From NCBI GenBank assembly GCA_002869165.1, contig PKTK01000011.1, positions 1 to 49,593 on the forward strand: a stretch of 49,593 bases of DNA, in the 5' to 3' direction. The translations under genes were made by a program, and so were the position numbers. This DNA is from Candidatus Parcubacteria bacterium. GTDB lineage: Bacteria > Patescibacteriota > Patescibacteriia > Patescibacteriales > UBA12075. The notes beneath the pieces were generated by a model, which was not told the origin of the DNA, searched no databases, and saw only the letters and a program-made list of their open reading frames with translations. Below are positions 24,926 through 48,622 of this stretch, piece after piece (position 1 is the stretch's first letter; the number at the start of each line of letters is the position of its first letter).

Positions 24926-25144
24926 CTAAGCAAACCGCTTGCCTTTTGTAATTTTTTTATGAATAAACTCTTCTTTTGAGCCTTGATTGTATTTTGCTAG
25001 CACATCAAATGGTAGACCCCTTTGAATTACTACTTGTTTCAAAAATAGCTTAATTGCCGAGCTCATATCTAAACCAAGACTCTCCAAAACCTTACGAGCC
25101 TCATCTTTATCTTTTTTGTCTATGCGTATTTGAATATGTGACAT
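24926..25144 (-). CDS. RelB/DinJ-family antitoxin (likely start at ATG 25144)
   Basis: MSHIQIRIDKKDKDEARKVLESLGLDMSSAIKLFLKQVVIQRGLPF is the RHH RelB/DinJ signature. Confidence 0.88.
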   Translation of the reverse strand: MSHIQIRIDKKDKDEARKVLESLGLDMSSAIKLFLKQVVIQRGLPFDVLAKYNQGSKEEFIHKKITKGKRFA

Positions 25145-25436
25145 TTTGTTTCTCGCTCCGCTCGACCCCACTATCACCGCCTTGGTCCCACAAGAAGACG
25201 GGACAGGCGGGATCCCGCATTTAATAAAAGTGTTGCGGGACAAATGAAGCACATGCGAATTTATATAATGATTCTCCCCTTTCCAGGGGGAGTACCCGAA
25301 CGGAGTGAGGGGGAGGGGTTTGATTTATACTATAATTTTAGCATATTGTAATGACATTGTCAATACATTATAATTATCCCCCTACTTTTCAAGGGAGGGG
25401 CAGGGGGGGTGGTTTATTGTTATTACTTAAGAAAAA

Positions 25437-26300
25437 TCATAACAAATCCTCTATTTCCTGCAAACTCTTACTTGCCACCTTAGTATAAACTTGAGTAGTT
25501 TCAAGTCTAGCGTGCCCAAGCAGAGATTGAATATATCTAAGATTTACGTTGTTCTCAAGCAAATGAGTAGCAAAAGTATGACGAAGAGTATGAGCTGAAA
25601 CATTTTTATTAATTCCCGCTCTACTAGAAGCTTCAGTAACTACTTTTTGAATAGATCTCACGCTCATCCTCTTACCAGCTGATAATGACTCAAATAAATA
25701 TTTCAAAGGTTTATATTCCAGTAAATATTTATGAACATTCTCTAAAACAATCTCTGAAATTATAGTATTTCTATCCTTCTTCCCCTTCCCTTGTTTAACT
25801 AATATCATTTTCCGATCAAAATCTACATGATCAATCCTTAAGTCTTTCAACTCAGAAACACGAAGCCCAGAACAATATAATATCTGAATCATAAGCTTAT
25901 GTTTAATATTTTCACAAACCTTTATCATTCTAACAATTTCTTGTTTATACAAAACAATTTGAAGTTTTTTGTCACTTTTTGGTCTTTTAATATCGGATGC
26001 ACCATTAAGTATTCTCCTTTTTAAAATTCCTTGATAATAATATTTTAAAGAATTAATAACCAAATTTATTGTCGCACTTGATTTTCCGCTGTCTACTAAA
26101 TATTCTAAATAGTCTTTTATATCAGAAGATGTTATTTCCTTTGGTGACTTATAATTTGCAAATCTTAGCATATCTTTGTTATAATAAAGATAAGATTTTA
26201 TTGTTTTGCTAGAGAATCTAGATATTTTCATGTTCTGCTCCAAATTCCGCATCGGATCACGATCATCAGTTGTAGTTCTAGAAAGATTAGATGTATTCAT
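25437..26300 (-). CDS. Tyrosine recombinase/integrase, integron-integrase-like but without the IntI-specific insertion
   Basis: N-terminal SAM-like domain; catalytic GLRVSE, KGKKDR, HTLRHTFATH, LLGH, TTQVY; KDR to YLFES spacing too short for the I2 insertion; diverges from the cassette array. Confidence 0.92.
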   Translation of the reverse strand: MNTSNLSRTTTDDRDPMRNLEQNMKISRFSSKTIKSYLYYNKDMLRFANYKSPKEITSSDIKDYLEYLVDSGKSSATINLVINSLKYYYQGILKRRILNGASDIKRPKSDKKLQIVLYKQEIVRMIKVCENIKHKLMIQILYCSGLRVSELKDLRIDHVDFDRKMILVKQGKGKKDRNTIISEIVLENVHKYLLEYKPLKYLFESLSAGKRMSVRSIQKVVTEASSRAGINKNVSAHTLRHTFATHLLENNVNLRYIQSLLGHARLETTQVYTKVASKSLQEIEDLL

Positions 26301-26355
26301 AACTCCTTGTGATTACATAATTATATAAATATTTTAACTAATTTTTAACAAAACA

Positions 26356-26384
26356 ACAACAAGTTCACATATAACTTGTTGTAC
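26356..26384 (+). other. Putative attI-like site
   Basis: Perfect 10-bp inverted repeat ACAACAAGTT-7nt-AACTTGTTGT containing the GTT (26378) that starts cassette 1; 55 bp upstream of the integrase start. Confidence 0.6.
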
Positions 26385-26526
26385 GAAATAAATTTTTTAT
26401 CTTATAAAGTATTGATGTTTAAGTATTTTGAACACGACGAAAATTTGATTTTTTTTATTAATTTAAAGAGGGGAAATATTGTGTATTCTCTGTTACGCAT
26501 TCGCGCCACTGCGAAAACGAATTATT

Positions 26527-27813
26527 ATGAAAAATAAAAACGAAAAAAATGAACCATTAGTTGAAACCTCTACATCTTCAGCCTTTTCCGTAAACGCCGA
26601 TAATGAAATCATTGATTATAGTCAATCACCCGAATTACAAGAAATGTTTAACTGCGACCAAGGTAAACTCAAAACAGCAGCAACTTCCGCTTTTGAAAAA
26701 ATATTATCCAGAGCCGAATCAAATAGCGATAAACAGCACTTGAAAAACTTAATTGCGGAAAGTGGAAAGTATATGTCTGAAAAATCCAAGTCCAGAGAAA
26801 ATGAATTTATTCACGGAACAGGTACTGATGCGCTTTTCGGCATAATTGAGCAAGGTAAAATTATTAGACGTGGTGCAGAATTTGGTGGTGCAGATGTTGA
26901 AATGGGTCACAAAATTGACAAAACAGAAAGTGGTGAAAGGGAAACTTATATTTCTGTTTCAGAAAATCAACCAATGGGCATGGGTTTGTCATATATTTAC
27001 GCCCGTGGTTTTGCGCGACCGGAAACAATCGACAAACTTAGCATTGACGCTAACCAAATCAATCAATCAAATTCAGCTTTGGAACAATGGGACGCTTTAC
27101 CAAAAGAAGAACAATTGCGACTACAAAAAGATTATGGTTTTTCAAGAGAACTAATAGAAGGGGTAAGCGAGCGACCGCATTATTTCGAACCTCCAATTGA
27201 AGAAAATAAAATTTTTGTATATCAATCTGTCTTAGACAATTTAAAAAATAAAAACATTCCAAAAGCACCAGATGAAATGACCAAAGTTAAAGAAGTACAT
27301 CACTTATATGGCAAGACAACAAACATTGAAATAATTGAAAAAATAATGACCAATATTGCTTCGGAATTCAAAAAATGGCCAAACACTGATATCAACGATT
27401 TGATAGCTACTTATGAAGACAAACTGAAACGAACGCAATCTAGACTACAGCAATATAACAACCTGACACCAGAAGAGCAAAAAAGAAAAACCCATCAACT
27501 ACCTGTCATCTTAACTATAAAAAAAGAAGGCATACAAAATGTTCGTGAAACAAAAAAAGTCCAAGGAAAAGAGTTGCCAATACACCCATCTGAACAAGAA
27601 AGAAGAATTTATGGAGACATTGATATAACCAATATTTCTGAGATTCAGGTGCCAGAAAATATCATTACTGAAGTTAAGGCAAAAATTGAAGAAAAAATTA
27701 AACAAACCAATGACCCAATGATAGTTGAACATTTGAAAAATATAAAATTGTTGCCTTTGGAATTTTATGAAATTGAAAGGGTTGTGCAAAAACAAGTCAA
27801 CGAATTACAATAA
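26527..27813 (+). CDS. Cassette 1: hypothetical protein, possible ADP-ribosyltransferase-like fold
   Basis: Likely ATG at 26527; FIHGT...L.GIIEQGKI, YISVS and EQERRI motifs. Confidence 0.6.
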   Translation: MKNKNEKNEPLVETSTSSAFSVNADNEIIDYSQSPELQEMFNCDQGKLKTAATSAFEKILSRAESNSDKQHLKNLIAESGKYMSEKSKSRENEFIHGTGTDALFGIIEQGKIIRRGAEFGGADVEMGHKIDKTESGERETYISVSENQPMGMGLSYIYARGFARPETIDKLSIDANQINQSNSALEQWDALPKEEQLRLQKDYGFSRELIEGVSERPHYFEPPIEENKIFVYQSVLDNLKNKNIPKAPDEMTKVKEVHHLYGKTTNIEIIEKIMTNIASEFKKWPNTDINDLIATYEDKLKRTQSRLQQYNNLTPEEQKRKTHQLPVILTIKKEGIQNVRETKKVQGKELPIHPSEQERRIYGDIDITNISEIQVPENIITEVKAKIEEKIKQTNDPMIVEHLKNIKLLPLEFYEIERVVQKQVNELQ

Positions 27814-27941
27814 GGTGTTTTAGACAAAGAGCATTCACCCCTTTAATTCCCCTCTGCCCTTTGCCCAAAACGAAAAAATCAATTTTTCTTTTCTAATTGA
27901 AAAGATTTAGTTCAATTAAAACGAGATAAAAAATTTACATC

Positions 27942-28086
27942 GTACAACAACGAATATGAGGTTCAAGAAATTTACGTTATAATGTTAATAAGGAATGTAA
28001 ATTTCTTTCACCCAAATTTTGACCTCTTTTATCTACTAATACACTAAGGAGTCGGTCAAAACTTCTCATATTCGTAAACGTTAGCT
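27942..28086 (+). repeat. attC-like site 1 (branched)
   Basis: GTACAAC-A-ACGAATATGAG...AGAAATTTAC/GTAAATTTCT...CCCAAA TTTTGACC/GGTCAAAA CTT CTCATATTCGT-AAAC-GTTAGCT. Confidence 0.85.
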
Positions 28087-28158
28087 GAAATAAATAAATT
28101 CTTTTCTGCTATCGCAGAAAAATTATTAAGGCAATTTTTATTCTTTATTTTTTTTACT

Positions 28159-28926
28159 ATGAAAAATGAACTTATCATTAAAAATCTTCGTTTAGTCGTT
28201 GCGGATACTTATGAAGAAATGAGCCAATATACCGCTGACCAAATCCACAATGACATTAAAAAGAAAAGTAACCTGCTTATCTGCACTGCCACCGGCTCCA
28301 CTCCAACAGAAGCCTATGATATGCTTGCCAAAAAATATGACGATGAGCCAGAAGTATTCAGTGGCGTCCGTTTTATTAAACTTGATGAGTGGGGCGGAAT
28401 TCCCATGGATGACCCGGCAACCTGTGAGGTTTATTTACAAGAACATTTGATTTCACCGCTCCAGATTGAAGCATCAAGGTTTGTTTCTTGGAATAGTATT
28501 CCCGAAGACCCAAATCAGGAAGTGAAACGGATATCTAATATGTTTGCCGACGAAGGTGATATTGACCTTTGTATACTTGGCATGGGTGTAAACGGTCATC
28601 TCGGTTTTAACGAACCAGCGGAATTCCTACGTCCCAGTGCACACGTAGCCGAACTCACTGAAACGACAAAAAAACACACAATGGCGCAAAAGGCAGAACA
28701 TGGCATTCAGTATGGATTAACCTTAGGAATGAACGACATTATGAGATCGAAAAAAATCTTGCTATTAGTGAACGGTTCCCACAAAGAAAAGCCTTTCAAG
28801 GAATTTCTTGCTGGTAAAATTACAACTAAATTCCCAACCACCATGCTCTGGATGCATCCGAACGTCACTGTGGTATGTGATAAAGAAGTAGTTCCAAATA
28901 TTGATAAAATTAACAGCCAAAAATAA
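28159..28926 (+). CDS. Cassette 2: glucosamine/galactosamine-6-phosphate isomerase (NagB/YieK-like) family protein
   Basis: ATGSTP, LDEW, LGMGVNGHLGFNEP, GLTLGM..IM, LWMHPNVTVVCD motifs. Confidence 0.9.
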   Translation: MKNELIIKNLRLVVADTYEEMSQYTADQIHNDIKKKSNLLICTATGSTPTEAYDMLAKKYDDEPEVFSGVRFIKLDEWGGIPMDDPATCEVYLQEHLISPLQIEASRFVSWNSIPEDPNQEVKRISNMFADEGDIDLCILGMGVNGHLGFNEPAEFLRPSAHVAELTETTKKHTMAQKAEHGIQYGLTLGMNDIMRSKKILLLVNGSHKEKPFKEFLAGKITTKFPTTMLWMHPNVTVVCDKEVVPNIDKINSQK

Positions 28927-28980
28927 AGAATAAAAATTGCCTTAATAATGCTCGCTATCGCTCGCGAATTTATTTACATC

Positions 28981-29071
28981 AGCTAACAGCGTGTATACGG
29001 TTCGCGCTTGCCTCCGGCAAATGCTCACCCAAATTTGCTTTGCAAACTTCGTATACACGCAAACGTTATGT
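28981..29071 (+). repeat. attC-like site 2 (shortest complete site)
   Basis: AGCTAAC-A-GCGTGTATACG-GTTC..TTGCC/GGCAA..CCCAAA TTTGC/GCAAA CTT CGTATACACGC-AAAC-GTTATGT. Confidence 0.87.
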
Positions 29072-29095
29072 GAAATTTTTAACCTTTTTAAATCT

Positions 29096-29875
29096 ATGAT
29101 CTATTGGAAACTATATTTTTGGTTCATATCACTTATTTCAGTGGTATCAATTTTTTCAAGCATTTCTAAGTTAGTGGGGAATCCCAAGCTTGGACTAATA
29201 GTAGCGTTTTTATTTTTCATGTTTTTTAACATACTTATAGTTTTAAATCTATACTCATTTGTTTACAAGAAAAAGATTGGTAATGACATTTTCCGTAAAA
29301 TAAGTTTCTACATTGTTTCTTTTGTTGTAATGACCATATCAATAGGTGCGCTTGGCAAAATTGGAGAAAAATTATTTTACGCTATTATATTTACTATATT
29401 ACCTTTAGTCCCAGCTGTATATGGTCTATATAAACACGCATTTAAAGACGCTGCTCTAAAAACAAAAGAAAAATCTAGTTCAAAGAAATCTACTATTTGG
29501 AAAATATATTTCTATTTTTTATTGGCGTCTTTAATCTTATCTTTACTGTCCCTGGTTAAAAACTTAGAAAAAGAGTTAGTTAGCTGGAACACAATCAATC
29601 TATTTATATCTAGTTTTTCTCTTTATGGTTTGTACTTATATGTCTTCGATAAACAGAAGTTTAGTAAACAACTTTGGAAAGTTTTTCTAGCAATGTTAAT
29701 AATCTGGGACGTCACCTATTATTTTGCCCTGTCTCCTAGTACTAATTCCGAAATGCTTGAAAAAATTCCCAAAGCCCCGTACTATGCGATGTTCATGATT
29801 ACTATACCTTTATATTATGCCCTATATTTATACAGCTTTAAGTCTGAACGAAAAAAGGTTAAAAACATCACATAA
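29096..29875 (+). CDS. Cassette 3: multi-pass membrane protein with an internal duplication
   Basis: Likely ATG at 29096; two similar halves (WK.YF.F...LY.FV..K); stop TAA lies within the CATAAC site, as is common in integron cassettes. Confidence 0.8.
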   Translation: MIYWKLYFWFISLISVVSIFSSISKLVGNPKLGLIVAFLFFMFFNILIVLNLYSFVYKKKIGNDIFRKISFYIVSFVVMTISIGALGKIGEKLFYAIIFTILPLVPAVYGLYKHAFKDAALKTKEKSSSKKSTIWKIYFYFLLASLILSLLSLVKNLEKELVSWNTINLFISSFSLYGLYLYVFDKQKFSKQLWKVFLAMLIIWDVTYYFALSPSTNSEMLEKIPKAPYYAMFMITIPLYYALYLYSFKSERKKVKNIT

Positions 29876-30040
29876 CAAGCTATATCTGGCTATAGAAAAT
29901 TATCTCAATCTAAACTTCCTCAACGCTACCGCTTTTGAGAAATAATAAGGAGTATAACTTTCTTCCGGCCCAAATTTGAGATATAATAATAAATACTTAA
30001 TAAGGTATATCTCAAACTTCAGATATAGCTATAGTTAAAT
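29870..30040 (+). repeat. attC-like site 3
   Basis: AGCTATATCTG/CAGATATAGCT outer stem, CCCAAA, TTTGAGATATA/TATATCTCAAA hairpin, GTT at 30034. Confidence 0.85.
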
Positions 30041-30113
30041 GAAATAATAAAAATCCTCCTTAATTAAAAACAAAAATATTTTTGGCAATTTATTTAAGGA
30101 TATCTAAAAAAAT

Positions 30114-30443
30114 ATGGAAAATTTAAACAAAGAAGTTTTTAAACCAAATACCCCAGAAGATATAAAAAACGACATAAACATGAAACTTCAGCATTGGGAT
30201 GGTTTATACGAAACTGTTTCTGGTTGGGTTAATTTCAAAGAAAATCTTCCCTTAACTATGGAAGATATCGCAAAGATCATGACTGAAAGTGAGATAGCAC
30301 ACAATAATGTTATCAAATATTTCAGTGAAGGTGGTGAAGGGTTTGAAAAGCAACCTGAATTTTCTAAAGACAAAGTGCTACAATTTTCAGAGCTTGTTAT
30401 TTTGGAACTAAGAGACAAAGTAAAAACCTTAGAAAACAAATAA
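30114..30443 (+). CDS. Cassette 4: hypothetical protein (109 aa)
   Basis: ORF fills the cassette; AAGGA upstream; flanks are inverted repeats. Confidence 0.75.
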   Translation: MENLNKEVFKPNTPEDIKNDINMKLQHWDGLYETVSGWVNFKENLPLTMEDIAKIMTESEIAHNNVIKYFSEGGEGFEKQPEFSKDKVLQFSELVILELRDKVKTLENK

Positions 30444-30494
30444 ATTACCAAAAATATTTTTTTAAAAAAAAGGAGTGAGGATTTTTATTACTTC

Positions 30495-30637
30495 ACTTAA
30501 CACCGCGATAAGCGGCTACAGAAAAATTCCTTCAATAGATTAAATAGGAGGAAATTTTTCTTCCGACCCAAATTTTGATTCCTTAATAATTATAATAAGG
30601 AAGAATCAAAACTTCGCTTCATCGGGAAACGTTATGT
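30495..30637 (+). repeat. attC-like site 4
   Basis: CGATAAGCG/CGCTTCATCG stem, CCCAAA, TTTTGATTC/GAATCAAAA, AAAC-GTT at 30631. Confidence 0.85.
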
Positions 30638-30659
30638 GAAATATTATTAAAACTTTTTT

Positions 30660-31013
30660 ATGAAACTATTAATAGCACTCTCAAAAACATTATTAATTCT
30701 AATATTTTTCTTCTCATTTTTAACTTTAATACACTTAATCAGTAGTTTAAAAGTTATTCCTTGTGAAATAAGTGACTGTAAAGGAGACAAATTAAATGAA
30801 TTAATGGGTGGCGATATTTCAGAAAGAAATCACTGTGCAATTTTTAACCCCATTGCAGATGGAATAGATTGCACAATTAATCCACCAATACTTAAAAGAG
30901 ACAATGGTTATTATTTAATAGGGTATGCTATGTTTTTATTTGTCTTGCATTTTTATATAACAAGAAAAATATTGCCACGATTATACGAAAAAATAACGAA
31001 AAAAAAGTTTTAA
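30660..31013 (+). CDS. Cassette 5: two-TM protein with a Cys-containing loop
   Basis: Hydrophobic N- and C-terminal segments, four Cys in the loop. Confidence 0.75.
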   Translation: MKLLIALSKTLLILIFFFSFLTLIHLISSLKVIPCEISDCKGDKLNELMGGDISERNHCAIFNPIADGIDCTINPPILKRDNGYYLIGYAMFLFVLHFYITRKILPRLYEKITKKKF

Positions 31014-31022
31014 TAATACTAC

Positions 31023-31237
31023 ACATAACACCGCGATAAGCGGCTACAGAAAAATATCTAATCAAAGCTCTCTCTTTGCTACCGCTTAAGAGAGATAATA
31101 ATCAGGAGTATAATTTTCTTTCGACCCAAATTGCGCTGACGATAATCATTGTTTAGTGCTATAATGACTGTAAGTAAATAATCAATATCTAATTTATATA
31201 TCCACGCGCAACTTCGCTTCATCGGTGAGAGTTAGAC
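31023..31237 (+). repeat. attC-like site 5
   Basis: Same ACCGCGATAAGCGGCTACAGAAAAAT start as site 4; CCCAAA TTGCGC...GCGCAA CTT CGCTTCATCGG; GTT at 31231. Confidence 0.82.
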
Positions 31238-31310
31238 GTAATTGTCCTTTTTATAATTATTTTTTAAAAAAAAGAAGCCGTCTGTTTCATTTCAAACGGC
31301 TCTGACATAG

Positions 31311-31637
31311 CTAATTTTTACTATGTTCAAATTTTTTGACAAATTTATGGATTGTTCTCAGCACTAACCAGATAAAAATGATTACCGCAACTACAACAAC
31401 AAATCCAACAAATCCATTTTTTAGAAAAGAACCGAACAATCCCGATTTATACAAGTCCCAAGCACCTATACACGGTAGACATATCATACCTAAAGATATG
31501 ACTGTCATAATTCCCCCGCCTATTGGTCCCCAGTTATTATCCAAGAATGCTCCCTTATAAAAAAGTCCATACAGCATTGCCCATCCACAGATAAAAAAGG
31601 CTACACCAAAGAATATTGCTACTATCTCTCCAGACAT
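31311..31637 (-). CDS. Cassette 6: three-TM membrane protein in reverse orientation
   Basis: GGAGGG RBS, TTGACT -35 at 31720-31725, hairpin downstream; cassette ends GTTAGACG/CGTCTAAC. Confidence 0.75.
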   Translation of the reverse strand: MSGEIVAIFFGVAFFICGWAMLYGLFYKGAFLDNNWGPIGGGIMTVISLGMICLPCIGAWDLYKSGLFGSFLKNGFVGFVVVVAVIIFIWLVLRTIHKFVKKFEHSKN

Positions 31638-31803
31638 GTTATACCCTCCATTTAAGAAAATAAATTTGTCAAAAAATTAGTTTCTACTGTTGGCCTAGTA
31701 TTACATATTATTTAACATCAGTCAACACTAACAAAAACATATTTTAACACGAAAAAATAATTATAAAAATGACAACTCTGCGCTATCGCTTGCCCTTCGG
31801 GAC

Positions 31804-31942
31804 GTCTAACACTCGATATCTGGTTACATATTTTTTCCAATTAATTAATAAGGAACAAAAAAATACTCCACCCAAATTTGTGATATAATTATTAAACTTA
31901 ATAAGGAATATCCCAAACTTCAGATATCGAGAAACGTTCAGC
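31804..31942 (+). repeat. attC-like site 6
   Basis: CTCGATATCTG/CAGATATCGAG stem, CCCAAA, AATAAGGA loops, AAAC-GTT at 31936. Confidence 0.85.
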
Positions 31943-32143
31943 GAAATCGTGCGCCCTCGCTATCGCTCAGTGCTCCGCTTCCGCTAAACGGCTGCGGTCC
32001 CCGAGTTCGGCATTATCGTTTCACTTGCCCTTCGGTCAAGCGCCTCGACAACGCCGAACTCGGCATATACGAAATGTCCAGCCTCAGTCTTCGCTCCGCT
32101 CAGCCTGCGTCTGGCCACTTCGCATATACCGCAGCCGTTGTAT
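31936..32143 (+). repeat. ORF-less cassette 7 plus a GC-rich second-type site; first 140 bp duplicated at 33286-33425
   Basis: GTTCAGCG..CGCTAAAC; AAC-GGCTGCGGT...ACCGCAGCC-GTT perfect stem; CCGAGTTCGGC/GCCGAACTCGG hairpin; copies differ at 4 of 140 positions. Confidence 0.85.
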
Positions 32144-32244
32144 GAAATAGTGACTCAATCAATCTATTTTAAGTACTTGCATATATAGGATTTTTGTGCT
32201 AATTTAACTTGAATTTCATTGATTTCGTCACTACAACACACAAC
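32137..32244 (+). promoter_or_regulatory. Cassette 8: ORF-less cassette with a putative sigma70 promoter
   Basis: TAGTGAC/GTCACTA terminal repeats; TTGCAT(32177)-17-TAATTT(32200) with extended TG. Confidence 0.5.
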
Positions 32245-32797
32245 ATGTGATATGAGACTACGAGTGATGATAAATTTGTTTTTGTTCTTAATATAAAAAT
32301 TAAAAAATCAGAGTTGTGTTAACCATTAATAACAAGGAGAATTATTATGAGTGTATTAGAGCTGAGTCTGGATTTCATGATAGCCGCTAACATCTTAGAT
32401 GAATTTGAGCTAATCATTGACAAAAATGTTGGTAAAAAATATGGAGAAATCTTAGTTTTCGAATATGAGGCTGGTAGATATGCACCTGAAAAATTTTGTC
32501 GCTATGCATTGATGGAGCAAAAAGCGGAAGGGAAAATCCCTCCTGATGTTAATGCATATCACATTGTCGAACTAACATGGATTAATGCAAAAACAAACAT
32601 GATAGCATTCCAACCACTAATTCTTTAAATGCTCACGGTGTAAACTAGTAACAAAGTTTACACCCAATTCTGATTTTTTAATTAACATCAAGGAAAAAAC
32701 AAAAAATAAATTCATCATCCCTCTCCGTCCAAATTTTACAGATAATAATAAAATTAATAAGTTATCTGTAAAACTTCTCATATCACTCTAGTTGTAC
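32238..32797 (+). repeat. attC-like site 8, expanded to ~560 bp with a gene inside hairpin A
   Basis: GTGATATGAG/CTCATATCAC outer stem; arms AATTAAAAAATCAGA/TCTGATTTTTTAATT flank ORF 32347..32628; TCCAAA TTTTACAGATAA/TTATCTGTAAAA CTT. Confidence 0.8.
32347..32628 (+). CDS. Hypothetical protein (93 aa) nested in attC-like site 8
   Basis: AAGGAG RBS; followed by hairpin GGTGTAAACT/AGTTTACACC. Confidence 0.75.
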   Translation: MSVLELSLDFMIAANILDEFELIIDKNVGKKYGEILVFEYEAGRYAPEKFCRYALMEQKAEGKIPPDVNAYHIVELTWINAKTNMIAFQPLIL

Positions 32798-32894
32798 GAA
32801 ATAGCCCTTCTCATTTCTACGAAAGCAATGTTCGTGGCAAAAAAAAGAAGCCCTTGCAAATCTAATAGAAATGCGAAGGGCTACATCGTACAAC
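32791..32894 (+). other. Cassette 9: ORF-less 104-bp cassette
   Basis: GTTGTACGAAATAGCCCTTCTCATTTCTA ... TAGAAATGCGAAGGGCTACATCGTACAAC. Confidence 0.75.
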
Positions 32895-32947
32895 ATGTGA
32901 TATCTGGTTCCAGAAGTGAAAAGTTTTATTTTATTCTTTTAAAGAAA

Positions 32948-32978
32948 AAAGTCATTACTATATTTCAGTAATGACTTT
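32948..32978 (-). terminator. Intrinsic terminator of the tRNA-like RNA
   Basis: 12-bp stem AAAGTCATTACT/AGTAATGACTTT followed by a T-run on the minus strand. Confidence 0.75.
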
Positions 32979-32987
32979 AACACGGGA

Positions 32988-33122
32988 CGCGCTGCATTGG
33001 ACTCGAACCAAAGGTTAAATATCCTAACACGTTATGCTTATGCAATATGTGTGCACCCACTTACACAGTTCACAACACGTATCATTGGTATTCGACCTGC
33101 TCCCTCACTAAGCTAACAGCAC
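32988..33122 (-). ncRNA. tRNA-like RNA (135 nt) with a long hairpin replacing the anticodon arm
   Basis: Acceptor GTGCTGT/GCAGCGC, TA-GCTT-AGTGAGG-GAGC D-arm, TTGG-TTCGAGT-CCAA T-arm; extended GGTCGAATA/TATTTAACC stem. Confidence 0.7.
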
Positions 33123-33155
33123 GTTATAATCTGAATGAACATTTTAATTGATAAA

Positions 33156-33183
33156 ATAGTAACATAAATTTCACACTTGTCAA
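33156..33183 (-). promoter_or_regulatory. Sigma70 promoter for the tRNA-like RNA
   Basis: TTGACA-16-TACTAT with extended TG. Confidence 0.65.
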
Positions 33184-33285
33184 TAACACCATGAAATAAA
33201 ATAAAACTTTTCACTTCTTACTCCCAAATTTTTGAAAAATAATTAATCTTAATAAGGAGTTTCAAAAACTTCAGATATCACCCTA

Positions 33286-33425
33286 GTTCAGCGAAATCGT
33301 GCGCCCTCGCTATCGCTCGATGCTCCGCTTCCGCTGAACGGCTGCGGTCCCCGAGTTCGGCATTATCGTGTCACTTGCCCTTCGGTCAAGCGCCTCGACA
33401 ACGCCGAACTCGGCATATACGAAAT
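33286..33425 (+). repeat. Cassette 10: second copy of the ORF-less GC-rich unit, truncated at CATATACGAAAT
   Basis: 136 of 140 bases identical to 31936-32075. Confidence 0.85.
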
Positions 33426-33516
33426 AATAAAAAACATTTTCCATTCGGAAAATAATTATTTTGTTAATTTATAAAAAAAGAGTTCCATGATTTTTCCTTC
33501 ATGAAACCCTATGGTG

Positions 33517-33753
33517 CTAACTTGTATAAAAGGGGCAGTCACCAAACTCCAAGATATCGTCCGATTTTTTATTGGACGCATTACAGACGTCGAGATTGGA
33601 TACTTTTTTAAAATGCCTACATAATGGTTTACTCAGACCAGATTTATAAATCTTCACGATAACGTTTTCTGCTTCTGGCAAAACTTTACCATTATTCTTG
33701 TCCACTCCTTTACAATTCACCTTATGCGTTCCTATGATTTCATCACGTACCAT
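33517..33753 (-). CDS. Cassette 11: small Cys-containing protein in reverse orientation with its own promoter
   Basis: AGGAGG RBS; TTGACA(33873)-17-TAGTAT(33850); four Cys. Confidence 0.75.
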   Translation of the reverse strand: MVRDEIIGTHKVNCKGVDKNNGKVLPEAENVIVKIYKSGLSKPLCRHFKKVSNLDVCNASNKKSDDILEFGDCPFYTS

Positions 33754-33901
33754 TCTTACAACCTCCTTTTTTTATAAATTAACAATATAATTTTGAAATT
33801 GCTATTACCTATTTAAACATTTATACTGAAAAGACCGATGTCATATACTACAATATTTAAATTAATCTGTCAAGGCGCAATTTCTAGTTTTTTACTACAT
33901 A

Positions 33902-34019
33902 ACATAACACCACGATATACGGTTCGGTCTCCTATCGGAAACCTCTCCCAAATTTATGATATAATTAATTATACTTAATAAGGTATATCATAAACTTCGT
34001 ATATCGGGAAACGTTATAC
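33902..34019 (+). repeat. attC-like site 11
   Basis: CGATATACG/CGTATATCG stem, CCCAAA TTTATGATATA/TATATCATAAA CTT, AAAC-GTT at 34013. Confidence 0.85.
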
Positions 34020-34161
34020 GCAATTCAAAAAATATTTTCTTTTAATTAGGTTTTTGATAGGCAATTAATGAGAATTTAAATTTGATTTTTTAATTAATTA
34101 TAAAGGGGGAAAGTTGAGTTCCTTCACTGGTGTTCAGGAGACAATTTAATTTTAAATATTT

Positions 34162-35112
34162 ATGAATTATAAAAAATATTTCTCTGATAATAATCTCATA
34201 GAAAATAAGAATATCCCTAATTCTGTGTGGCTAGATTACGTAAAAAATGGCATTTACCCAGTTAGAGGTTTGGTATTTTTCTATTTTTTTATACTCATTT
34301 TAATGCTGTCTTTTTTTATTATTCCGTCATTGAATATTTATCAAAAAATAAAAATTGAATTTCTTGGAGATGATTTCACTTTATTTGTTTACATTGCTAT
34401 TTCATCATTGTTATTCCTGATACTCTTTTTTAAATATTTTAATAAAAAAGGTGATTACTGGAGAAAGGTTCCTATTAATAATTGGTTTAGATCATGGAGA
34501 ATTTATAATTTTTTAGAATATTTAGAAAAAGAAAATATTTCAAATATTGGGCTATTTGATAAACAAAAAAACATTTTTCAAATAAATTCATTCAAAAATA
34601 CTGGAGTTATTACAATAGACTACATTATTGATTTAGGGCTACTTGCCACAGCAGACAGAAAATCGCCCATTAATTACACATTTCGGACTAATAAAGAAGT
34701 TGAAGCAGGTTATGAATATTCTCATTTTTTTAAACTATCTTTTGAAAGTTATATTTTTAGAAAACTAAAAAATACAATATATTTTTATGGCAATAATCGA
34801 AGTACTTTTAGTAGATATCTATTTTTAGAAACAATTAAAGACAAGGGTAATGTTTTTTTAAAAAATGATGATGAAAACACCGGGGTCAATAAATTGCTTT
34901 ACGATATTAAAAAATTAATACAAGATTACCCAAACTTAAAAGGAGAAATATTGATTGACAACACAAGTGTAGTGGTTAAATTTTATGACAACTATAGACA
35001 CTTCACTATGCTCAACACTGACGGGAAACAGTATTTTGATTTTTTGAAAAATAAAAATAATTTGTTTGAAAGTTTTGAAGGTTGTGAAAAATTATTAAAC
35101 ATTTTGAGCTAG
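34162..35112 (+). CDS. Cassette 12: membrane-anchored hypothetical protein (two TM helices)
   Basis: 316-aa ORF; flanking sequences resemble those of cassette 1. Confidence 0.75.
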   Translation: MNYKKYFSDNNLIENKNIPNSVWLDYVKNGIYPVRGLVFFYFFILILMLSFFIIPSLNIYQKIKIEFLGDDFTLFVYIAISSLLFLILFFKYFNKKGDYWRKVPINNWFRSWRIYNFLEYLEKENISNIGLFDKQKNIFQINSFKNTGVITIDYIIDLGLLATADRKSPINYTFRTNKEVEAGYEYSHFFKLSFESYIFRKLKNTIYFYGNNRSTFSRYLFLETIKDKGNVFLKNDDENTGVNKLLYDIKKLIQDYPNLKGEILIDNTSVVVKFYDNYRHFTMLNTDGKQYFDFLKNKNNLFESFEGCEKLLNILS

Positions 35113-35201
35113 CTATTATTTTTATTAAAACAAAAAATAAAACTTTCTCTACAATTATTTAACATTTAATATATTTAGCAACGCGATAAAAAACTTACAT
35201 C

Positions 35202-35343
35202 GCACAACAAACGATATACGGCTACAGAAAAATTCCTTTATTAATTAACACCAAGGAGTAAACTTTTCTTCCGACCCAAATTATAAAAATGAACATTAAT
35301 TTAATAAGGTATTTTTAGAACTTCGTATATCTACTTATTGTAT
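35202..35343 (+). repeat. attC-like site 12, degenerate end of the array
   Basis: GATATACG/CGTATATC stem and CCCAAA present, but terminal GTT is replaced by ATT (35337). Confidence 0.75.
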
Positions 35344-35392
35344 TAAATAATTAAATACCTTTTTTTAAAAATCACATTTTAAACAAATATTT

Positions 35393-36046
35393 ATGTCTAT
35401 GAAAAAATTTCATTACCAAGACGCTATCAAATTTTGTTGGGAACGCATGAAAGAAAACTTTTGGTTTTTCTTTGGCTCCTTAATGACAATTGGCTTGGTT
35501 AGTTGGATCTCTGAGGATGTTGACAAGCTTAGTGAAAACAACCCTTCTTTTGATTTGACCATCTTGAGTATCTTACTATTAATGTTGATGCTAATATTAG
35601 ATCTAGGCATGATGAATATTTCTCTAAAAATTCATGACAAAAAAGAGGTGACTTATACAGATCTATTCAATCTATACCCTAGAATATTAAAATACTTTTT
35701 AACCAATCTTCTATACTTTTTAATTGTATTCGGAGGTTTATTGCTTTTTATAGTTCCGGGAATAATTTGGGCCATCAAATTTCAATTTTGTAGTTATTTG
35801 ATTGCTGACAAAAACTTGGGGCCAATTGAAGCTCTGAAGGAAAGCTCTAGATTAACCAGAGACGCCAAAATGGATCTTTTCTTCTTTGGTTTTATTGTTT
35901 TTATTGTAGTCTTAGCTGGGGCTTTGTGTTTAGTAATTGGTTTGTTCTTTGCTATACCAACTGTCATGGTAGCTTATGCATATGTTTTTAGAAAATTACA
36001 AGAAAATAAAATAGAAATAATCAAAGAACCTGAATCAAAAAAATAA
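35393..36046 (+). CDS. Integral membrane protein, DUF975-like
   Basis: GLLLFIVPGIIWAIKF...EALKESSRLT...K.DLF pattern. Confidence 0.75.
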   Translation: MSMKKFHYQDAIKFCWERMKENFWFFFGSLMTIGLVSWISEDVDKLSENNPSFDLTILSILLLMLMLILDLGMMNISLKIHDKKEVTYTDLFNLYPRILKYFLTNLLYFLIVFGGLLLFIVPGIIWAIKFQFCSYLIADKNLGPIEALKESSRLTRDAKMDLFFFGFIVFIVVLAGALCLVIGLFFAIPTVMVAYAYVFRKLQENKIEIIKEPESKK

Positions 36047-47320: not shown

Positions 47321-47640
47321 GCGGGTCCGATTGATGGTCGGTTTGTGCTTGCCTATTTCTTTTTCTTAACGAGGTCACTTTTTTATCCCCGCAATATCCT
47401 TCCTTTGCTTTATTTAATGGCGCAAAGGATTACAGATGGTTAGTCTGCTTGTTGGTTTGGATCGTGGATGCTCGGATCAAGCACCCCCTTGCTTTTTACA
47501 ATATCCCTTGAGGAAAGGAAATATCGCTTCGGGCTCTACGTGGCCCCTTGGAGGAGATCACTACCCCCAACCCATGGCGAGTTACCAACTCACCCCGAAT
47601 CGCTTACGCGACACTTCCGGACAGTCAGAAGATTTTTGGA
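47321..47640 (-). ncRNA. Candidate structured ncRNA, copy A
   Basis: GC-rich hairpins with minus-strand G-U pairs (GGTGAGT/ACTCGCC, GGGTGCTT/GAGCATCC); homologous to copy B. Confidence 0.6.
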
Positions 47641-47726
47641 TTTCTCCTCTAGCATCTCACTACTTATAATGAGATATTAGAGAAAAGCGAAGTTTTCTCT
47701 CTCTACAAAAGCAAAATCTTGCGGAC

Positions 47727-48086
47727 TTATTCATAGCCTGCTAAACATGATGAACATGCTAAATTCAGCTGGCGATGATTAAGATCACGAAGAAAAACAA
47801 TGTCGATTTTATTTAAAATCGCCTTGTCTTTCACTGTGTACCCATAAGATTTTACTTTGACAATCTTTACACGCTTATACAACATGATATATCTTCTTGC
47901 TTTGCAACAATAGAATTTTTTTTCTACTGGTCCAGAAACTGCAAGCGCAATAAAATAAACTGTGTAAAGCTTGTCTTCAAAACGCATAAAATGATCTTTT
48001 ATCCGTTTTGACTTACCAGGATTTTTTAAGATCCTGGCTTCTGCAACATAAAATGGGATACTTCCTATCTTTTTTGCTTTTTCCAT
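47727..48086 (-). CDS. Hypothetical basic protein (about 119 aa; likely start ATG 48086)
   Basis: AAGGGGGA RBS; the longer upstream start would run through a repeat. Confidence 0.7.
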   Translation of the reverse strand: MEKAKKIGSIPFYVAEARILKNPGKSKRIKDHFMRFEDKLYTVYFIALAVSGPVEKKFYCCKARRYIMLYKRVKIVKVKSYGYTVKDKAILNKIDIVFLRDLNHRQLNLACSSCLAGYE

Positions 48087-48228
48087 TTTTGTCCCCCCTT
48101 TTTTCCTGAACATTCCACTTAGAAAAAGCCTGTTTGAGAAAAGCGAAGTTTTCTCGTATTGCATTGATAGTGTCCGCTTATCAGGCGCCCAGGTGCTTCC
48201 CCTGAGTATTACAGGTCAGTTTATATCC

Positions 48229-48423
48229 TCATGACATAGAGGGTTGTTTTTTAAACAGCTTACGAACCCCCAGACCGAGAAACACATACTTTAGTACAAA
48301 GACTAAAACGAATGTGCTGGCTACGATGTTCGGATCGTAACCTACGAACAGAGCACTATTGCTCATATACGTACCGATCCATTGAACAAGGCCAAGCAGC
48401 AGAAAAATTGCAAAGTATAGCAT
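48229..48423 (-). CDS. Small two-TM membrane protein
   Basis: AGGAG RBS; hydrophobic. Confidence 0.65.
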   Translation of the reverse strand: MLYFAIFLLLGLVQWIGTYMSNSALFVGYDPNIVASTFVLVFVLKYVFLGLGVRKLFKKQPSMS

Positions 48424-48455
48424 TTTAGTCTCCTGTAATATGACATTTATTTGTT

Positions 48456-48622
48456 AATTTCCCAAAACTTCGCAAAGGCTTGTTTTATAAATTGCGCACA
48501 ATAAAACTTCGCGGAAAAATTGTGCTAGATATTGTTTATAGAATCTGGAATGCTAAATTTTTATAATTCATTCCTTGTTTCATACAAGCATATCTTGACC
48601 CTTTGCGAAGTTTTGGGAAATT
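48456..48622. repeat. 167-bp element with perfect 23-bp terminal inverted repeats
   Basis: AATTTCCCAAAACTTCGCAAAGG / CCTTTGCGAAGTTTTGGGAAATT; internal AAAACTTCGC at about 48503. Confidence 0.8.

What the first reader, a model, noticed from the sequence alone, without database searches (positions are those of the whole stretch)
27942..35343. Conserved branched (three-way junction) recombination sites instead of single-hairpin attC
Ten sites share the layout AAC-(1-3 nt)-outer stem-RYT(C/A)-hairpin A-(C/T)CCAAA-hairpin B-CTT-outer stem'-(3-4 nt)-GTT; the last copy ends in ATT. The outer stems covary (ACGAATATGAG/CTCATATTCGT, GCGTGTATACG/CGTATACACGC, AGCTATATCTG/CAGATATAGCT, CTCGATATCTG/CAGATATCGAG), and an AATAAGG(A) motif recurs in the hairpin loops. 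Length runs from about 90 to 560 bp. Canonical attC is one imperfect hairpin with extrahelical bases, so conserved junction bases and loop motifs suggest a different recognition mode or an added RNA-level role.
Basis: seen in the sequence. Interest (0 to 1): 0.88.

Follow-up and report, generated by a model that had tools for sequence, protein, structure and literature searches.

The report
Integron-like cassette array with branched sites
A small candidate-phyla bacterium carries a gene-cassette array like an integron, but its recombinase lacks the domain that defines integron integrases and its recombination sites fold into a conserved three-way junction, which bears on how integrons arose.

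Summary
All ten sites are present at 27937-35348. They belong to a larger platform. It has a divergent 287-aa tyrosine recombinase (25437-26300, minus strand), an attI-like site at 26356-26389, and about 11 cassettes.

- **Cassette signature:** each cassette's end box matches the start box of the same cassette at 3.99 of 5 variable bases, against 2.51 for the same site.
- **Distribution:** a covariance model found the site in 32 of 151 sampled Patescibacteria genomes.
- **Linkage:** in 20 of 20 loci holding both elements, the sites lie upstream of the recombinase gene and on the opposite strand.
- **Covariation:** 90.5% of cells pair, against 64.4% in shuffles.
- **Mobility:** two related genomes differ by a 1785-bp two-cassette indel that breaks exactly at [G/A]|TT.
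- **Recombinase:** it keeps the catalytic residues but lacks the IntI-specific insertion.

Branched attC tips are already known from VCR sites. What is new is the invariant junction: a CC linker, an A.C mismatch and a 1-versus-4-nt spacer. The AATAAGG loop motif is lineage-limited (17 of 118 sites). No recombination was demonstrated, and no RNA-level role was tested.

The parts
25437..26300 (-). Tyrosine recombinase gene (287 aa, P0001). Xer/IntI-like, without the IntI-specific insertion. Divergent from the cassette array.
   Evidence: Pfam PF00589 (6.8e-41) and PF13495 (1.5e-15). NCBIfam NF040815 scores 231.4 bits (cut-off 220); TIGR02249 scores 196.1 (cut-off 265) in two stretches. Model positions 178-236 are unmatched. 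The gap against VchIntIA and IntI1 is shown. R147, K172, H237, R240, H263 and Y272 are kept. The predicted structure has only a short hairpin at 197-213.
26356..26389 (+). attI-like site. Palindrome ACAACAAGTT-CACATAT-AACTTGTTGT, followed by ACGAAAT. The first GTT of the array starts at 26378.
   Evidence: Sequence; inverted repeat listed. The same core precedes the first GTT in L009, L011 and own contig C6. A related motif precedes it in 20+ loci next to the recombinase gene. Its function is inferred.
26379..28080 (+). Cassette 1, with a 444-aa ORF of unknown family (26479-27813). It starts TTGTACGAAAT and ends ACATCGTACAAC plus site s1.
   Evidence: The 25-nt terminal inverted repeat with a 2-nt mismatch is read.
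27937..28091 (+). Site s1, including the R'' and R' boxes.
   Evidence: CM hit of 74.0 bits.
28976..29076 (+). Site s2, which closes the cassette carrying the galactosamine/glucosamine-6-phosphate isomerase-like ORF 28159-28926.
   Evidence: CM hit of 88.8 bits.
29865..30045 (+). Site s3.
   Evidence: CM hit of 54.7 bits.
30490..30642 (+). Site s4. Its outer stem has one bulged base on each arm.
   Evidence: CM hit of 53.2 bits.
31018..31242 (+). Site s5. Same outer stem as s4, with a long hairpin B.
   Evidence: Weak CM hit of 28.5 bits, E 0.0026.
31799..31947 (+). Site s6.
   Evidence: CM hit of 57.1 bits.
31937..32148 (+). GC-rich (58%) variant site or empty cassette, bounded by GTTCAGCGAAAT and GTTGTATGAAAT. 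It is also a three-way junction.
   Evidence: The bottom strand folds at -50.3 kcal/mol against -32.6 for the top. Not hit by the CM.
32233..32802 (+). Site s7. A 93-aa ORF (32347-32628) lies inside the loop of hairpin A.
   Evidence: A similar site lies on own contig C6. Too long for the CM.
32883..33297 (+). Site s8. About 300 nt lie inside hairpin A.
   Evidence: Not hit by the CM.
33287..33425 (+). Partial second copy (97% identity) of the GC-rich element.
33897..34024 (+). Site s9.
   Evidence: CM hit of 85.1 bits.
35197..35348 (+). Site s10, the last and degenerate site. It ends ATTGTATTAAAT.
   Evidence: CM hit of 26.0 bits, E 0.0099.

Best explanation
**What it is.** A sedentary, integron-type gene-cassette platform of a Patescibacteria (candidate phyla radiation) bacterium.

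**How it most likely works (inferred).** The recombinase at 25437-26300 recombines an attI-like site beside its own gene with attC-like sites that close each cassette. The crossover falls after the first base of the conserved [G/A]TT triplet. Cassettes are inserted and excised as units.

**The folded site.** Each site probably acts as a folded single strand, more likely the bottom strand. The fold contains:
- an R box, where ...ACATCRNNNAAC pairs with GTTNNNYGAAAT;
- an asymmetric spacer, with A opposite RRAC;
- an 11-bp L stem with a conserved ATAT centre;
- a three-way junction, in which hairpin A abuts the L stem, a CC linker follows, and hairpin B stacks back on the L stem. Hairpin B's base is A-T, N-N, then an invariant A.C mismatch, which is G.T on the bottom strand.

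In effect the fold imitates the double-stranded L'-R' half-site, and the attI, but carries fixed defects.

**Proposed role of the defects (inferred).** The recombinase has no IntI-specific I2 region and most sites have no extrahelical bases. I therefore propose that the defects do the job that extrahelical bases do in canonical attC. The defects are the 3-nt spacer bulge, the CC (GG) linker with its branch, and the wobble pair. Together they would mark the strand and the orientation, and limit the reaction to one strand exchange.

**Shown:** the anatomy, the covariation, the linkage to the recombinase, the cassette signature, and one natural indel at the crossover point.
**Inferred:** that the site acts as single-stranded DNA, which strand is used, and the role of the junction bases.
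For: **Platform**
- The divergent recombinase carries PF00589 and PF13495.
- The attI-like site and the GTTNNNYGAAAT / ACATCRNNNAAC boxes sit at every cassette border.
- The genome holds a separate XerD-like gene on contig C14, so P0001 is not its only Xer-type enzyme.

**Cassette signature**
- R''(n) equals the reverse complement of R'(n-1) at a mean of 3.99 of 5 variable bases. 39 of 81 pairs are perfect. The value is 2.51 against R'(n) and 2.54 against R'(n+1).
- The longest ORF lies on the array strand in 68 of 78 inter-site intervals. The median interval is 776 bp.

**Structure**
- RNAalifold on 14 compact sites predicts the three-way junction. 18 of 27 pairs show compensatory changes.
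- On 118 model-aligned sites, 90.5% of cells pair. Shuffles give 64.4% (0 of 500 reach the observed value). Slid controls give 26-50%.
- Junction pairs covary: 26-302 GC 107 / AT 3; 27-142 GC 90 / AT 12; 28-140 TA 44 / CG 31; 146-300 AT 66 / TA 39 / CG 5.
- The A.C mismatch at 147/299 is present in 115 of 118 sites.
- The linker is CC in 101 of 118. The 5' spacer is A in 116 of 118. The 3' spacer is 4 nt in 97 of 118.

**Strand**
- The bottom-strand DNA fold is more stable in 9 of 10 window sites.
- It is more stable in 100 of 118 family sites, by 1.84 kcal/mol on average.

**Linkage**
- The model hits 32 of 151 sampled phylum genomes.
- Taking those genomes as G000-G150, which I inferred from the family tallies, and combining: recombinase and sites 16, recombinase only 6, sites only 16, neither 113.
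- In 20 of 20 loci with both, all sites lie on the strand opposite the recombinase gene and on its 5' side.

**Mobility**
- G036 and G008 are in the same genus. Their shared flanks are 92-96% identical.
- They differ by 1785 bp holding two sites. The breakpoints are ...G|TT in one genome, and ...G|TT ... A|TT in the other.

**Recombinase**
- The catalytic residues R, K, H, R, H and Y are kept.
- The 31 + 10 residues of the IntI1 insertion are absent.
- IntI model positions 178-236 are unmatched.
- The AlphaFold model shows no helix at 197-213.
- The nearest folds are XerA and VchIntIA.
- No genome of 401 reaches the IntI cut-off.
Against: - No recombination product was seen. No excised circle or junction read is in hand.
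- Covariation was counted on an alignment fitted to the model, and many sites within one array are kin. Both inflate the shuffle control.
- 16 of 32 genomes with sites have no recombinase at E <= 1e-45, and 6 of 22 genomes with the recombinase have no model hit. Eight fetched arrays have no recombinase in the flank examined.
- Eight recombinase loci gave no model hit. Four of them had under 1 kb of array-side flank (L009, L010, L013, L065). L059 had 4.4 kb and L064 had 3.2 kb.
- The branch may not be needed:
  - one site has no hairpin A;
  - hairpin A tolerates inserts of 300-470 nt, including an ORF;
  - a branched tip is already known from VCR sites.
- One clade member (G334) carries a 31-aa insertion at the IntI position next to the same sites. 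The site type is therefore not tied strictly to loss of the insertion.
- The L'-R' half is by itself a dif-like double-stranded inverted repeat. A double-stranded reaction is not excluded.
Confidence: 0.7

Rival explanations
1. It is an ordinary integron in function. The recombinase reads only the R and L boxes and the spacer. The three-way junction is just this lineage's variable terminal structure, like the branched tip of VCR sites, kept by descent and by the need for a stable fold. On this view the conserved junction bases are part of the L-arm binding sequence and are not a strand marker.
For: - A branched terminal structure is known in VCR sites (passages).
- One site lacks hairpin A.
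- Hairpin A carries inserts of 300-470 nt and even an ORF.
- The AACTTC motif at the junction also occurs in the attI-like sites as (A/C)TTC-RYATA..., so it may simply be the L-arm sequence.
- The AATAAGG motif is lineage-limited.
Against: - The CC linker (101 of 118), the A.C mismatch (115 of 118) and the zero-nucleotide joins are kept across recombinases that are only 37-66% identical.
- Both hairpins keep pairing through compensatory changes.
- The enzyme lacks the region that canonical IntI uses, as stated in the abstract listing of PMC7790495 and the passages of 10.1101/2022.02.06.479319.
- 98 of 118 sites have no bulged base in the L stem.
Confidence: 0.2
2. The cassettes move by classical double-stranded, Xer/dif-like recombination at the L'-R' half-site, as proposed for pdif modules. 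The folds serve another purpose, for example as RNA structures between cassettes.
For: - L' plus spacer plus R' reads as an inverted repeat, AYTTCR...|GTT...YGAAAT.
- The recombinase scores above the cut-off of the XerA family model.
- The attI-like site is a plain palindrome.
Against: - A double-stranded reaction gives no reason to keep L'' complementary to L', or to keep either hairpin paired.
- All sites of an array point the same way.
- The genome has a separate XerD-like gene.
- Rfam gives no match at E <= 1.
- No terminator-like site on the array strand falls in the sites.
Confidence: 0.07
3. The elements are structured non-coding RNAs or a palindromic repeat family, unrelated to the neighbouring recombinase.
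For: - The folds have strong z-scores, -4.4 for the top strand and -5.3 for the bottom.
- The loop motif AATAAGG is strand-specific.
Against: - The 7 hits in the own genome fall in two arrays only.
- 20 of 20 loci share one geometry with the recombinase.
- The box complementarity follows cassette borders.
- An indel falls exactly at [G/A]|TT.
- Rfam gives no match.
Confidence: 0.03

Closest known systems
Integrons (IntI integrase, attI, attC cassette arrays), especially sedentary chromosomal integrons
   Same: - Divergent tyrosine recombinase gene, then an attI, then same-direction cassettes, mostly with one ORF each.
- Four-box site R''-L''...L'-R' with AAC and GTT triplets.
- R'' of a cassette matches the R' at its own start.
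- Crossover within GTT.
- Arrays without an integrase also occur, like CALIN.

   Different: - The recombinase lacks the IntI-specific insertion and scores below the IntI cut-off.
- The R-L spacer is 1 versus 4 nt, with the extra bases on the R'-L' arm.
- The L stem is 11 bp, and 98 of 118 sites have no bulge in it.
- The junction is conserved in sequence.
- Cassette ends carry inverted repeats of 22-28 nt beyond the R box.
VCR and other large attC sites with a branched variable terminal structure (Bouvier et al. 2009, PMC2727003; passages read)
   Same: The tip of the folded site is branched, and the site is long (60-207 nt among the model-aligned sites).
   Different: Here the branch point itself is conserved across genomes: a CC linker, an A.C mismatch and zero-nucleotide joins. 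It sits directly on the L stem. VCR sites carry three extrahelical bases, which most of these sites lack.
Archaeal XerA / Xer recombinases (NF040815; PDB 4a8e, 5hxy), and the 'Cand' subgroup of simple tyrosine recombinases (Smyshlyaev et al. preprint 10.1101/542381; passages read)
   Same: Same length and fold, and no insertion. P0001 scores above the XerA family cut-off. The preprint reports a Xer-like subgroup found only in candidate phyla.
   Different: Xer enzymes resolve chromosome dimers at one dif site. This enzyme sits beside cassette arrays in 20 of 20 loci, and the genome has another XerD-like gene. I did not test whether P0001 belongs to 'Cand'; the member lists are in supplements I could not see.
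Integration of the folded single-stranded CTX phage genome by XerCD (recalled, not read here)
   Same: It would be a precedent for a Xer-type enzyme without an I2 helix that recombines a folded single-stranded hairpin imitating its double-stranded site.
   Different: That system integrates a phage into dif. It is not a cassette array, and it has no three-way junction of this kind.

Membership tests
Integron | Tyrosine recombinase gene next to the cassette array and divergent from it | tested here: met
   20 of 20 loci with both elements share this geometry.
Integron | IntI-specific additional domain (I2 region around patch III) in the integrase | tested here: not met
   TIGR02249 model positions 178-236 are unmatched. 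27 residues stand where VchIntIA has 69. The 31 + 10 residues of IntI1 are absent. The predicted structure has no helix at 197-213.
Integron | Integrase reaches the curated cut-off of the integron-integrase family model (TIGR02249, 265 bits) | tested here: not met
   196.1 bits. 0 of 401 phylum genomes are over the cut-off; the best is G334 at 235-240 bits.
Integron | attC-type site: inverted R''/R' boxes ending in AAC and starting with GTT, with inner L''/L' boxes, able to fold | tested here: met
Integron | Extrahelical bases on the R''-L'' arm of the folded site | tested here: not met
   98 of 118 sites have no bulge in the L stem. The extra spacer bases lie on the R'-L' arm. Hairpin A does branch off the R''-L'' arm.
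Integron | Cassette borders at G|TT, so that R'' of a cassette matches the R' at its start | tested here: met
   3.99 of 5 bases match, against 2.51. An indel falls at [G/A]|TT.
Integron | attI site beside the integrase gene where cassettes enter | tested here: inconclusive
   A conserved motif ends at the first GTT next to the gene in the window and in 20+ loci. No activity data.
Integron | Recombination of the folded bottom strand by one strand exchange | not testable with these tools
   Indirect evidence only. The bottom strand is more stable in 100 of 118 sites, and the invariant A.C on the top strand equals G.T on the bottom strand.
Xer/dif chromosome dimer resolution (XerA type) | Sequence above the family cut-off (NF040815, 220 bits) | tested here: met
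   231.4 bits.
Xer/dif chromosome dimer resolution (XerA type) | Acts at a single dif site as the cell's dimer resolvase | not tested
   No dif search was made. A separate XerD-like gene lies on contig C14.
pdif-type Xer modules | Modules flanked by double-stranded Xer sites in alternating orientation | tested here: not met
   In 29 of 30 sources with model hits, all hits lie on one strand. L088 has one hit on the other strand.
Any Rfam RNA family | Match to a curated covariance model | tested here: not met
   The only match at gathering score in the window is a tRNA-Pro elsewhere. There are 0 matches at E <= 1 in 26300-35500.

The most novel reading that the evidence does not exclude
Patescibacteria hold a second kind of integron. 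Its integrase is a Xer-like enzyme without the I2 region. It recognises folded single-stranded sites through a sequence-conserved three-way junction: a GG linker and a G.T wobble on the bottom strand, plus a 3-nt spacer bulge. These take the place of extrahelical bases. If so, the I2 helix is not required for cassette recombination on folded DNA, and this clade is either a surviving pre-IntI stage or an independent solution.
Probability: 0.4. Interest if true: 0.9.

Novelty: new variant of a known kind. Interest (0 to 1): 0.8.

Why it matters
**Current view.** The field defines integron integrases by the additional domain. It treats gain of the I2 helix as the step that opened single-stranded recombination. 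I take this from the abstract listing of PMC7790495 and passages of 10.1101/2022.02.06.479319.

**What this adds.** A widespread natural platform with every architectural mark of an integron, but an insertion-less enzyme and a different site geometry, makes the origin question directly testable. It offers a compact recombinase-site pair for engineering. It also shows that surveys keyed to the IntI domain would score these loci as arrays without an integrase, or miss them.

**Scale.**
- The sites occur in about one fifth of the sampled Patescibacteria genomes (32 of 151).
- The recombinase occurs in about one tenth (42 of 401).

This suggests cassette exchange is a common source of gene-content variation in these reduced genomes.

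**Literature.** Five full-text searches and a term search of the IntegronFinder 2.0 paper found no description of it. Subscription journals are not covered by that library.

Tried and rejected
- **Simple site finders.** Perfect-stem and regular-expression finders missed sites with bulged stems and gave a few AT-rich false hits. I replaced them with the covariance model.
- **Strict pattern.** It matched 26 of 401 genomes, against one match for its reversed control. By eye, about seven of the matching genomes show no hairpin B. I used it only as a first look.
- **First MAFFT alignment.** A1 misplaced the CCCAAA block by one column in 6 of 14 rows and was not used for the model.
- **Promoters in the hairpin loops.** The idea is not supported: 49 promoter-like sites against 41.9 +/- 6.1 in shuffles.
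- **Defence genes.** PADLOC found none among nine cassette ORFs plus one ORF of the C6 locus. Pfam named only the isomerase-like cassette.
- **Persicobacter homologue.** The nearest homologue in a cultured organism, on a Persicobacter plasmid (40% identity), has no model hit and no repeat array within 8 kb.
- **Tree.** It did not resolve where IntI1, the Persicobacter protein and the XerD-like protein join the clade. They form an open fork with long branches. I therefore claim no ancestry.
- **G016 array.** The GTT/ATT pattern there does not discriminate between crossover positions.
- **Sequencing runs.** One holder was listed, kept as contigs. No RNA holder was listed.
- **Supplements.** None were asked for. 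The member tables of the 'Cand' subgroup (10.1101/542381) and the attC tables of the integron surveys may bear on the novelty claim.

Full report
**1. What is in the window**

The contig is 49.6 kb with about 34% G+C. It belongs to a 1.43-Mb genome of 15 contigs. Relatives of its recombinase come from records titled Patescibacteria, Parcubacteria or Falkowbacteria.

Each has the same layout:
- AAC, one A, and an 11-nt stem;
- a first hairpin (A);
- (C/T)CC, then AAA;
- a second hairpin (B);
- CTT, the complementary stem, 3-4 nt, and GTT (ATT in the last site).

Folded as DNA, s1, s2, s3, s6 and s9 give an outer stem enclosing two hairpins on both strands. s4 and s5 (bulged stems) and s10 (degenerate) fold less cleanly. 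The bottom strand is the more stable in 9 of 10, with one tie.

**2. The sites are the ends of cassettes**

Every site is preceded by a box ACATCRNNNAAC and followed by GTTNNNYGAAAT.

The variable letters of the box before a site match the box that follows the previous site, not the box that follows the same site. Over all arrays collected, the match is 3.99 of 5 letters (39 of 81 perfect). It is 2.51 for the same site and 2.54 for the next one. This is the signature left by a crossover inside the conserved triplet, as in integron cassettes.

Upstream of s1 there is one more cassette, 26379-28080, with a 444-aa ORF. Before it lies an attI-like palindrome at 26356-26389 that ends at the first GTT. 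Immediately beyond, on the other strand, lies a 287-aa tyrosine recombinase gene.

ORFs between sites lie on the array strand in 68 of 78 intervals. The median interval is 776 bp.

Within the window, cassette ends also carry inverted repeats of 22-28 nt, with a conserved 2-nt mismatch where ACATC meets GAAAT (read).

**3. The recombinase**

- It carries PF00589 and PF13495.
- Its best curated family is NF040815, 'site-specific tyrosine recombinase/integron integrase': 231.4 bits against a cut-off of 220.
- The integron-integrase model TIGR02249 gives 196.1 bits against a cut-off of 265, in two stretches. Model positions 178-236 are left unmatched.
- Against VchIntIA (2a3v), 27 residues stand where the integrase has 69.
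- Against IntI1, it lacks 31 + 10 residues. R147, K172, H237, R240, H263 and Y272 are kept.
- An AlphaFold model (mean pLDDT 79) shows only a short hairpin at 197-213.
- The nearest solved folds are XerA and VchIntIA, with similar scores.
- The genome also holds a separate XerD-like gene on contig C14.
- More than 120 clusters at 57% identity or more exist in public data. All are 276-295 aa.

**4. The site family and its structure**

A MAFFT alignment of 14 compact sites from six sources gave an RNAalifold consensus with the three-way junction. 18 of 27 pairs show compensatory changes.

A covariance model built from it finds 7 places in the own genome. Six are in this array and one is in a second small array on contig C6. 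It finds 118 places in 39 fetched sources.

On those 118:
- 90.5% of cells form standard pairs, against 64.4% in shuffles. None of 500 shuffles reaches the observed value.
- Slid controls give 26-50%.

Two cautions apply. The alignment is fitted to the model, and sites within one array are kin.

Column counts refine the junction:
- The outer stem closes with G-C (pair 26-302: GC 107, AT 3).
- Hairpin A starts at once (27-142: GC 90, AT 12; 28-140: TA 44, CG 31).
- Two unpaired C follow (CC in 101 of 118).
- Hairpin B begins A-T, then N-N (146-300: AT 66, TA 39, CG 5), then an A.C mismatch in 115 of 118. It runs back into the outer stem with no spacer.
- The 5' spacer is a single A in 116 of 118. 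The 3' spacer has 4 nt in 97 of 118.
- 98 of 118 sites have no bulge in the L stem.

The top-strand A.C is a G.T wobble on the bottom strand. The bottom strand folds better in 100 of 118 sites, by 1.84 kcal/mol on average.

**5. Linkage to the recombinase**

In an even sample of the phylum:
- the recombinase (E <= 1e-45) occurs in 42 of 401 genomes;
- the model hits 32 of 151 genomes.

Taking the 151 as G000-G150, which I inferred from the family tallies, the table is: both 16, recombinase only 6, sites only 16, neither 113.

In the 20 fetched loci that hold both, all sites lie upstream of the recombinase gene and on the opposite strand. One example is a run of 17 sites over 28 kb in G016.

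The misses were:
- Eight recombinase loci had no model hit. Four of them had under 1 kb of flank on the array side.
- Eight arrays, including the one on own contig C6, have no recombinase in the flank examined. These resemble the integrase-less arrays known for integrons (passages).

The attI-like motif next to the gene is shared across loci. It resembles the L'-R' half of the sites: roughly TTC-RYATA-AAC-NA|GTT.

**6. Evidence of movement**

G036 and G008 are in one genus, and their shared flanks are 92-96% identical. G036 has 1785 bp with two further sites that G008 lacks.
- In G008 the junction reads ...CAAACG|TTGAATAAAAT.
- In G036 it reads ...CAAACG|TTAGGC..., and further on ...GGATATA|TTGAATAAAAT.

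The breakpoints fall exactly after the first base of the triplet. The changed first base stays with the left partner. This is one case, not a survey.

**7. How it compares with what is known**

The architecture is that of an integron. Two defining features fail, however: the IntI-specific domain, and extrahelical bases on the R''-L'' arm.

Branching alone is not new. Bouvier et al. describe a large branched terminal structure in VCR sites, and place the extrahelical bases on the R''-L'' arm (passages). Here the extra spacer bases lie on the other arm, and the branch point is conserved in sequence.

Smyshlyaev et al. report a Xer-like 'Cand' subgroup restricted to candidate phyla. They list it among putative dimer-resolution proteins (passages). 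I could not check membership.

No canonical integrase was found in the phylum sample: 0 of 401 genomes are over the cut-off. One clade member, G334, has a 31-aa insertion at the IntI position and scores 239.7 bits. It lies next to the same kind of site. In the tree it is nested inside the clade, as sister to G223 with support 99/98. The position of IntI1 is unresolved.

**8. Reading**

The best explanation is a cassette platform that works like an integron, with a Xer-like enzyme and a folded site of fixed geometry.

- **Shown here:** the anatomy, the covariation, the linkage, the cassette signature and one natural indel.
- **Inferred:** use of the folded bottom strand, and a role of the junction defects in strand choice.

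The loop motif AATAAGG is real in this genome but optional in the family. It occurs in 17 of 118 sites and never on the other strand. No RNA-level role was tested.

Noticed in passing
window 31937-32148 and 33287-33425: A 58% G+C element in a 33% G+C genome. There is one full copy and one partial copy (97% identity), both directly after a site's GTT. It folds as its own three-way junction. The bottom strand is far more stable than the top (-50.3 against -32.6 kcal/mol). It occurs nowhere else in the genome or in the fetched loci.
   Followed up: partly
window 32945-33155, minus strand, inside hairpin A of site s8: A promoter-like site (33183-33156) and a terminator-like hairpin (32978-32948) bracket about 200 nt. 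That stretch folds like a tRNA with a long insert in the anticodon arm; it has a GGUUCGAGUCC T-arm and a z-score of -2.61. ARAGORN and Rfam do not call it.
   Followed up: partly
window 32347-32628, inside site s7: A 93-aa ORF with its own ribosome-binding-like sequence and a terminator-like hairpin sits in the loop of hairpin A instead of between the R boxes. A similar site is on contig C6. Sites in L041/L065 and L026/L057 also carry inserts of 390-420 nt there.
   Followed up: partly
own genome, contig C6, about 47576-48600 (locus L089 7577-8600), minus strand: A second attI-like site has the same core as the window's. It is followed by at least two sites and by small cassettes, including a glyoxalase-like ORF and a DUF7768 ORF. 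It lies next to DAGK-like and bactofilin genes, with no recombinase within the 16 kb fetched.
   Followed up: partly
locus L092 (G334:C5) 2393-3307, with sites at 52-188 and 1133-1238: A 304-aa clade member has a 31-aa insertion at the place of the IntI additional domain. TIGR02249 gives 239.7 bits in one stretch, just under the cut-off. It lies next to the same three-way-junction sites.
   Followed up: partly
window cassette ends, for example 26378-26402 with 27924-27948, and 28080-28101 with 28966-28987: Each cassette carries terminal inverted repeats of 22-28 nt that extend well beyond the 7-bp R box of canonical attC. A conserved 2-nt mismatch falls where ACATC meets GAAAT (read). I did not count this across the family.
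   Followed up: no
loci L016 3676-3773 and L011: A good site lies on a contig whose record title says Halobacteria archaeon. A full platform lies on a contig titled Gammaproteobacteria. These may be binning errors or transfers.
   Followed up: no
window 24926-25252 and 25270-25415: A RelB-antitoxin-like ORF lies just beyond the 3' end of the recombinase gene. Between them are two short G-rich/C-rich blocks that stand out from the AT-rich surroundings.
   Followed up: no
recombinase tree: Genomes of one taxonomic family (f7: G223 and G308) fall in different recombinase subclades. This hints that the platform moves between lineages.
   Followed up: no
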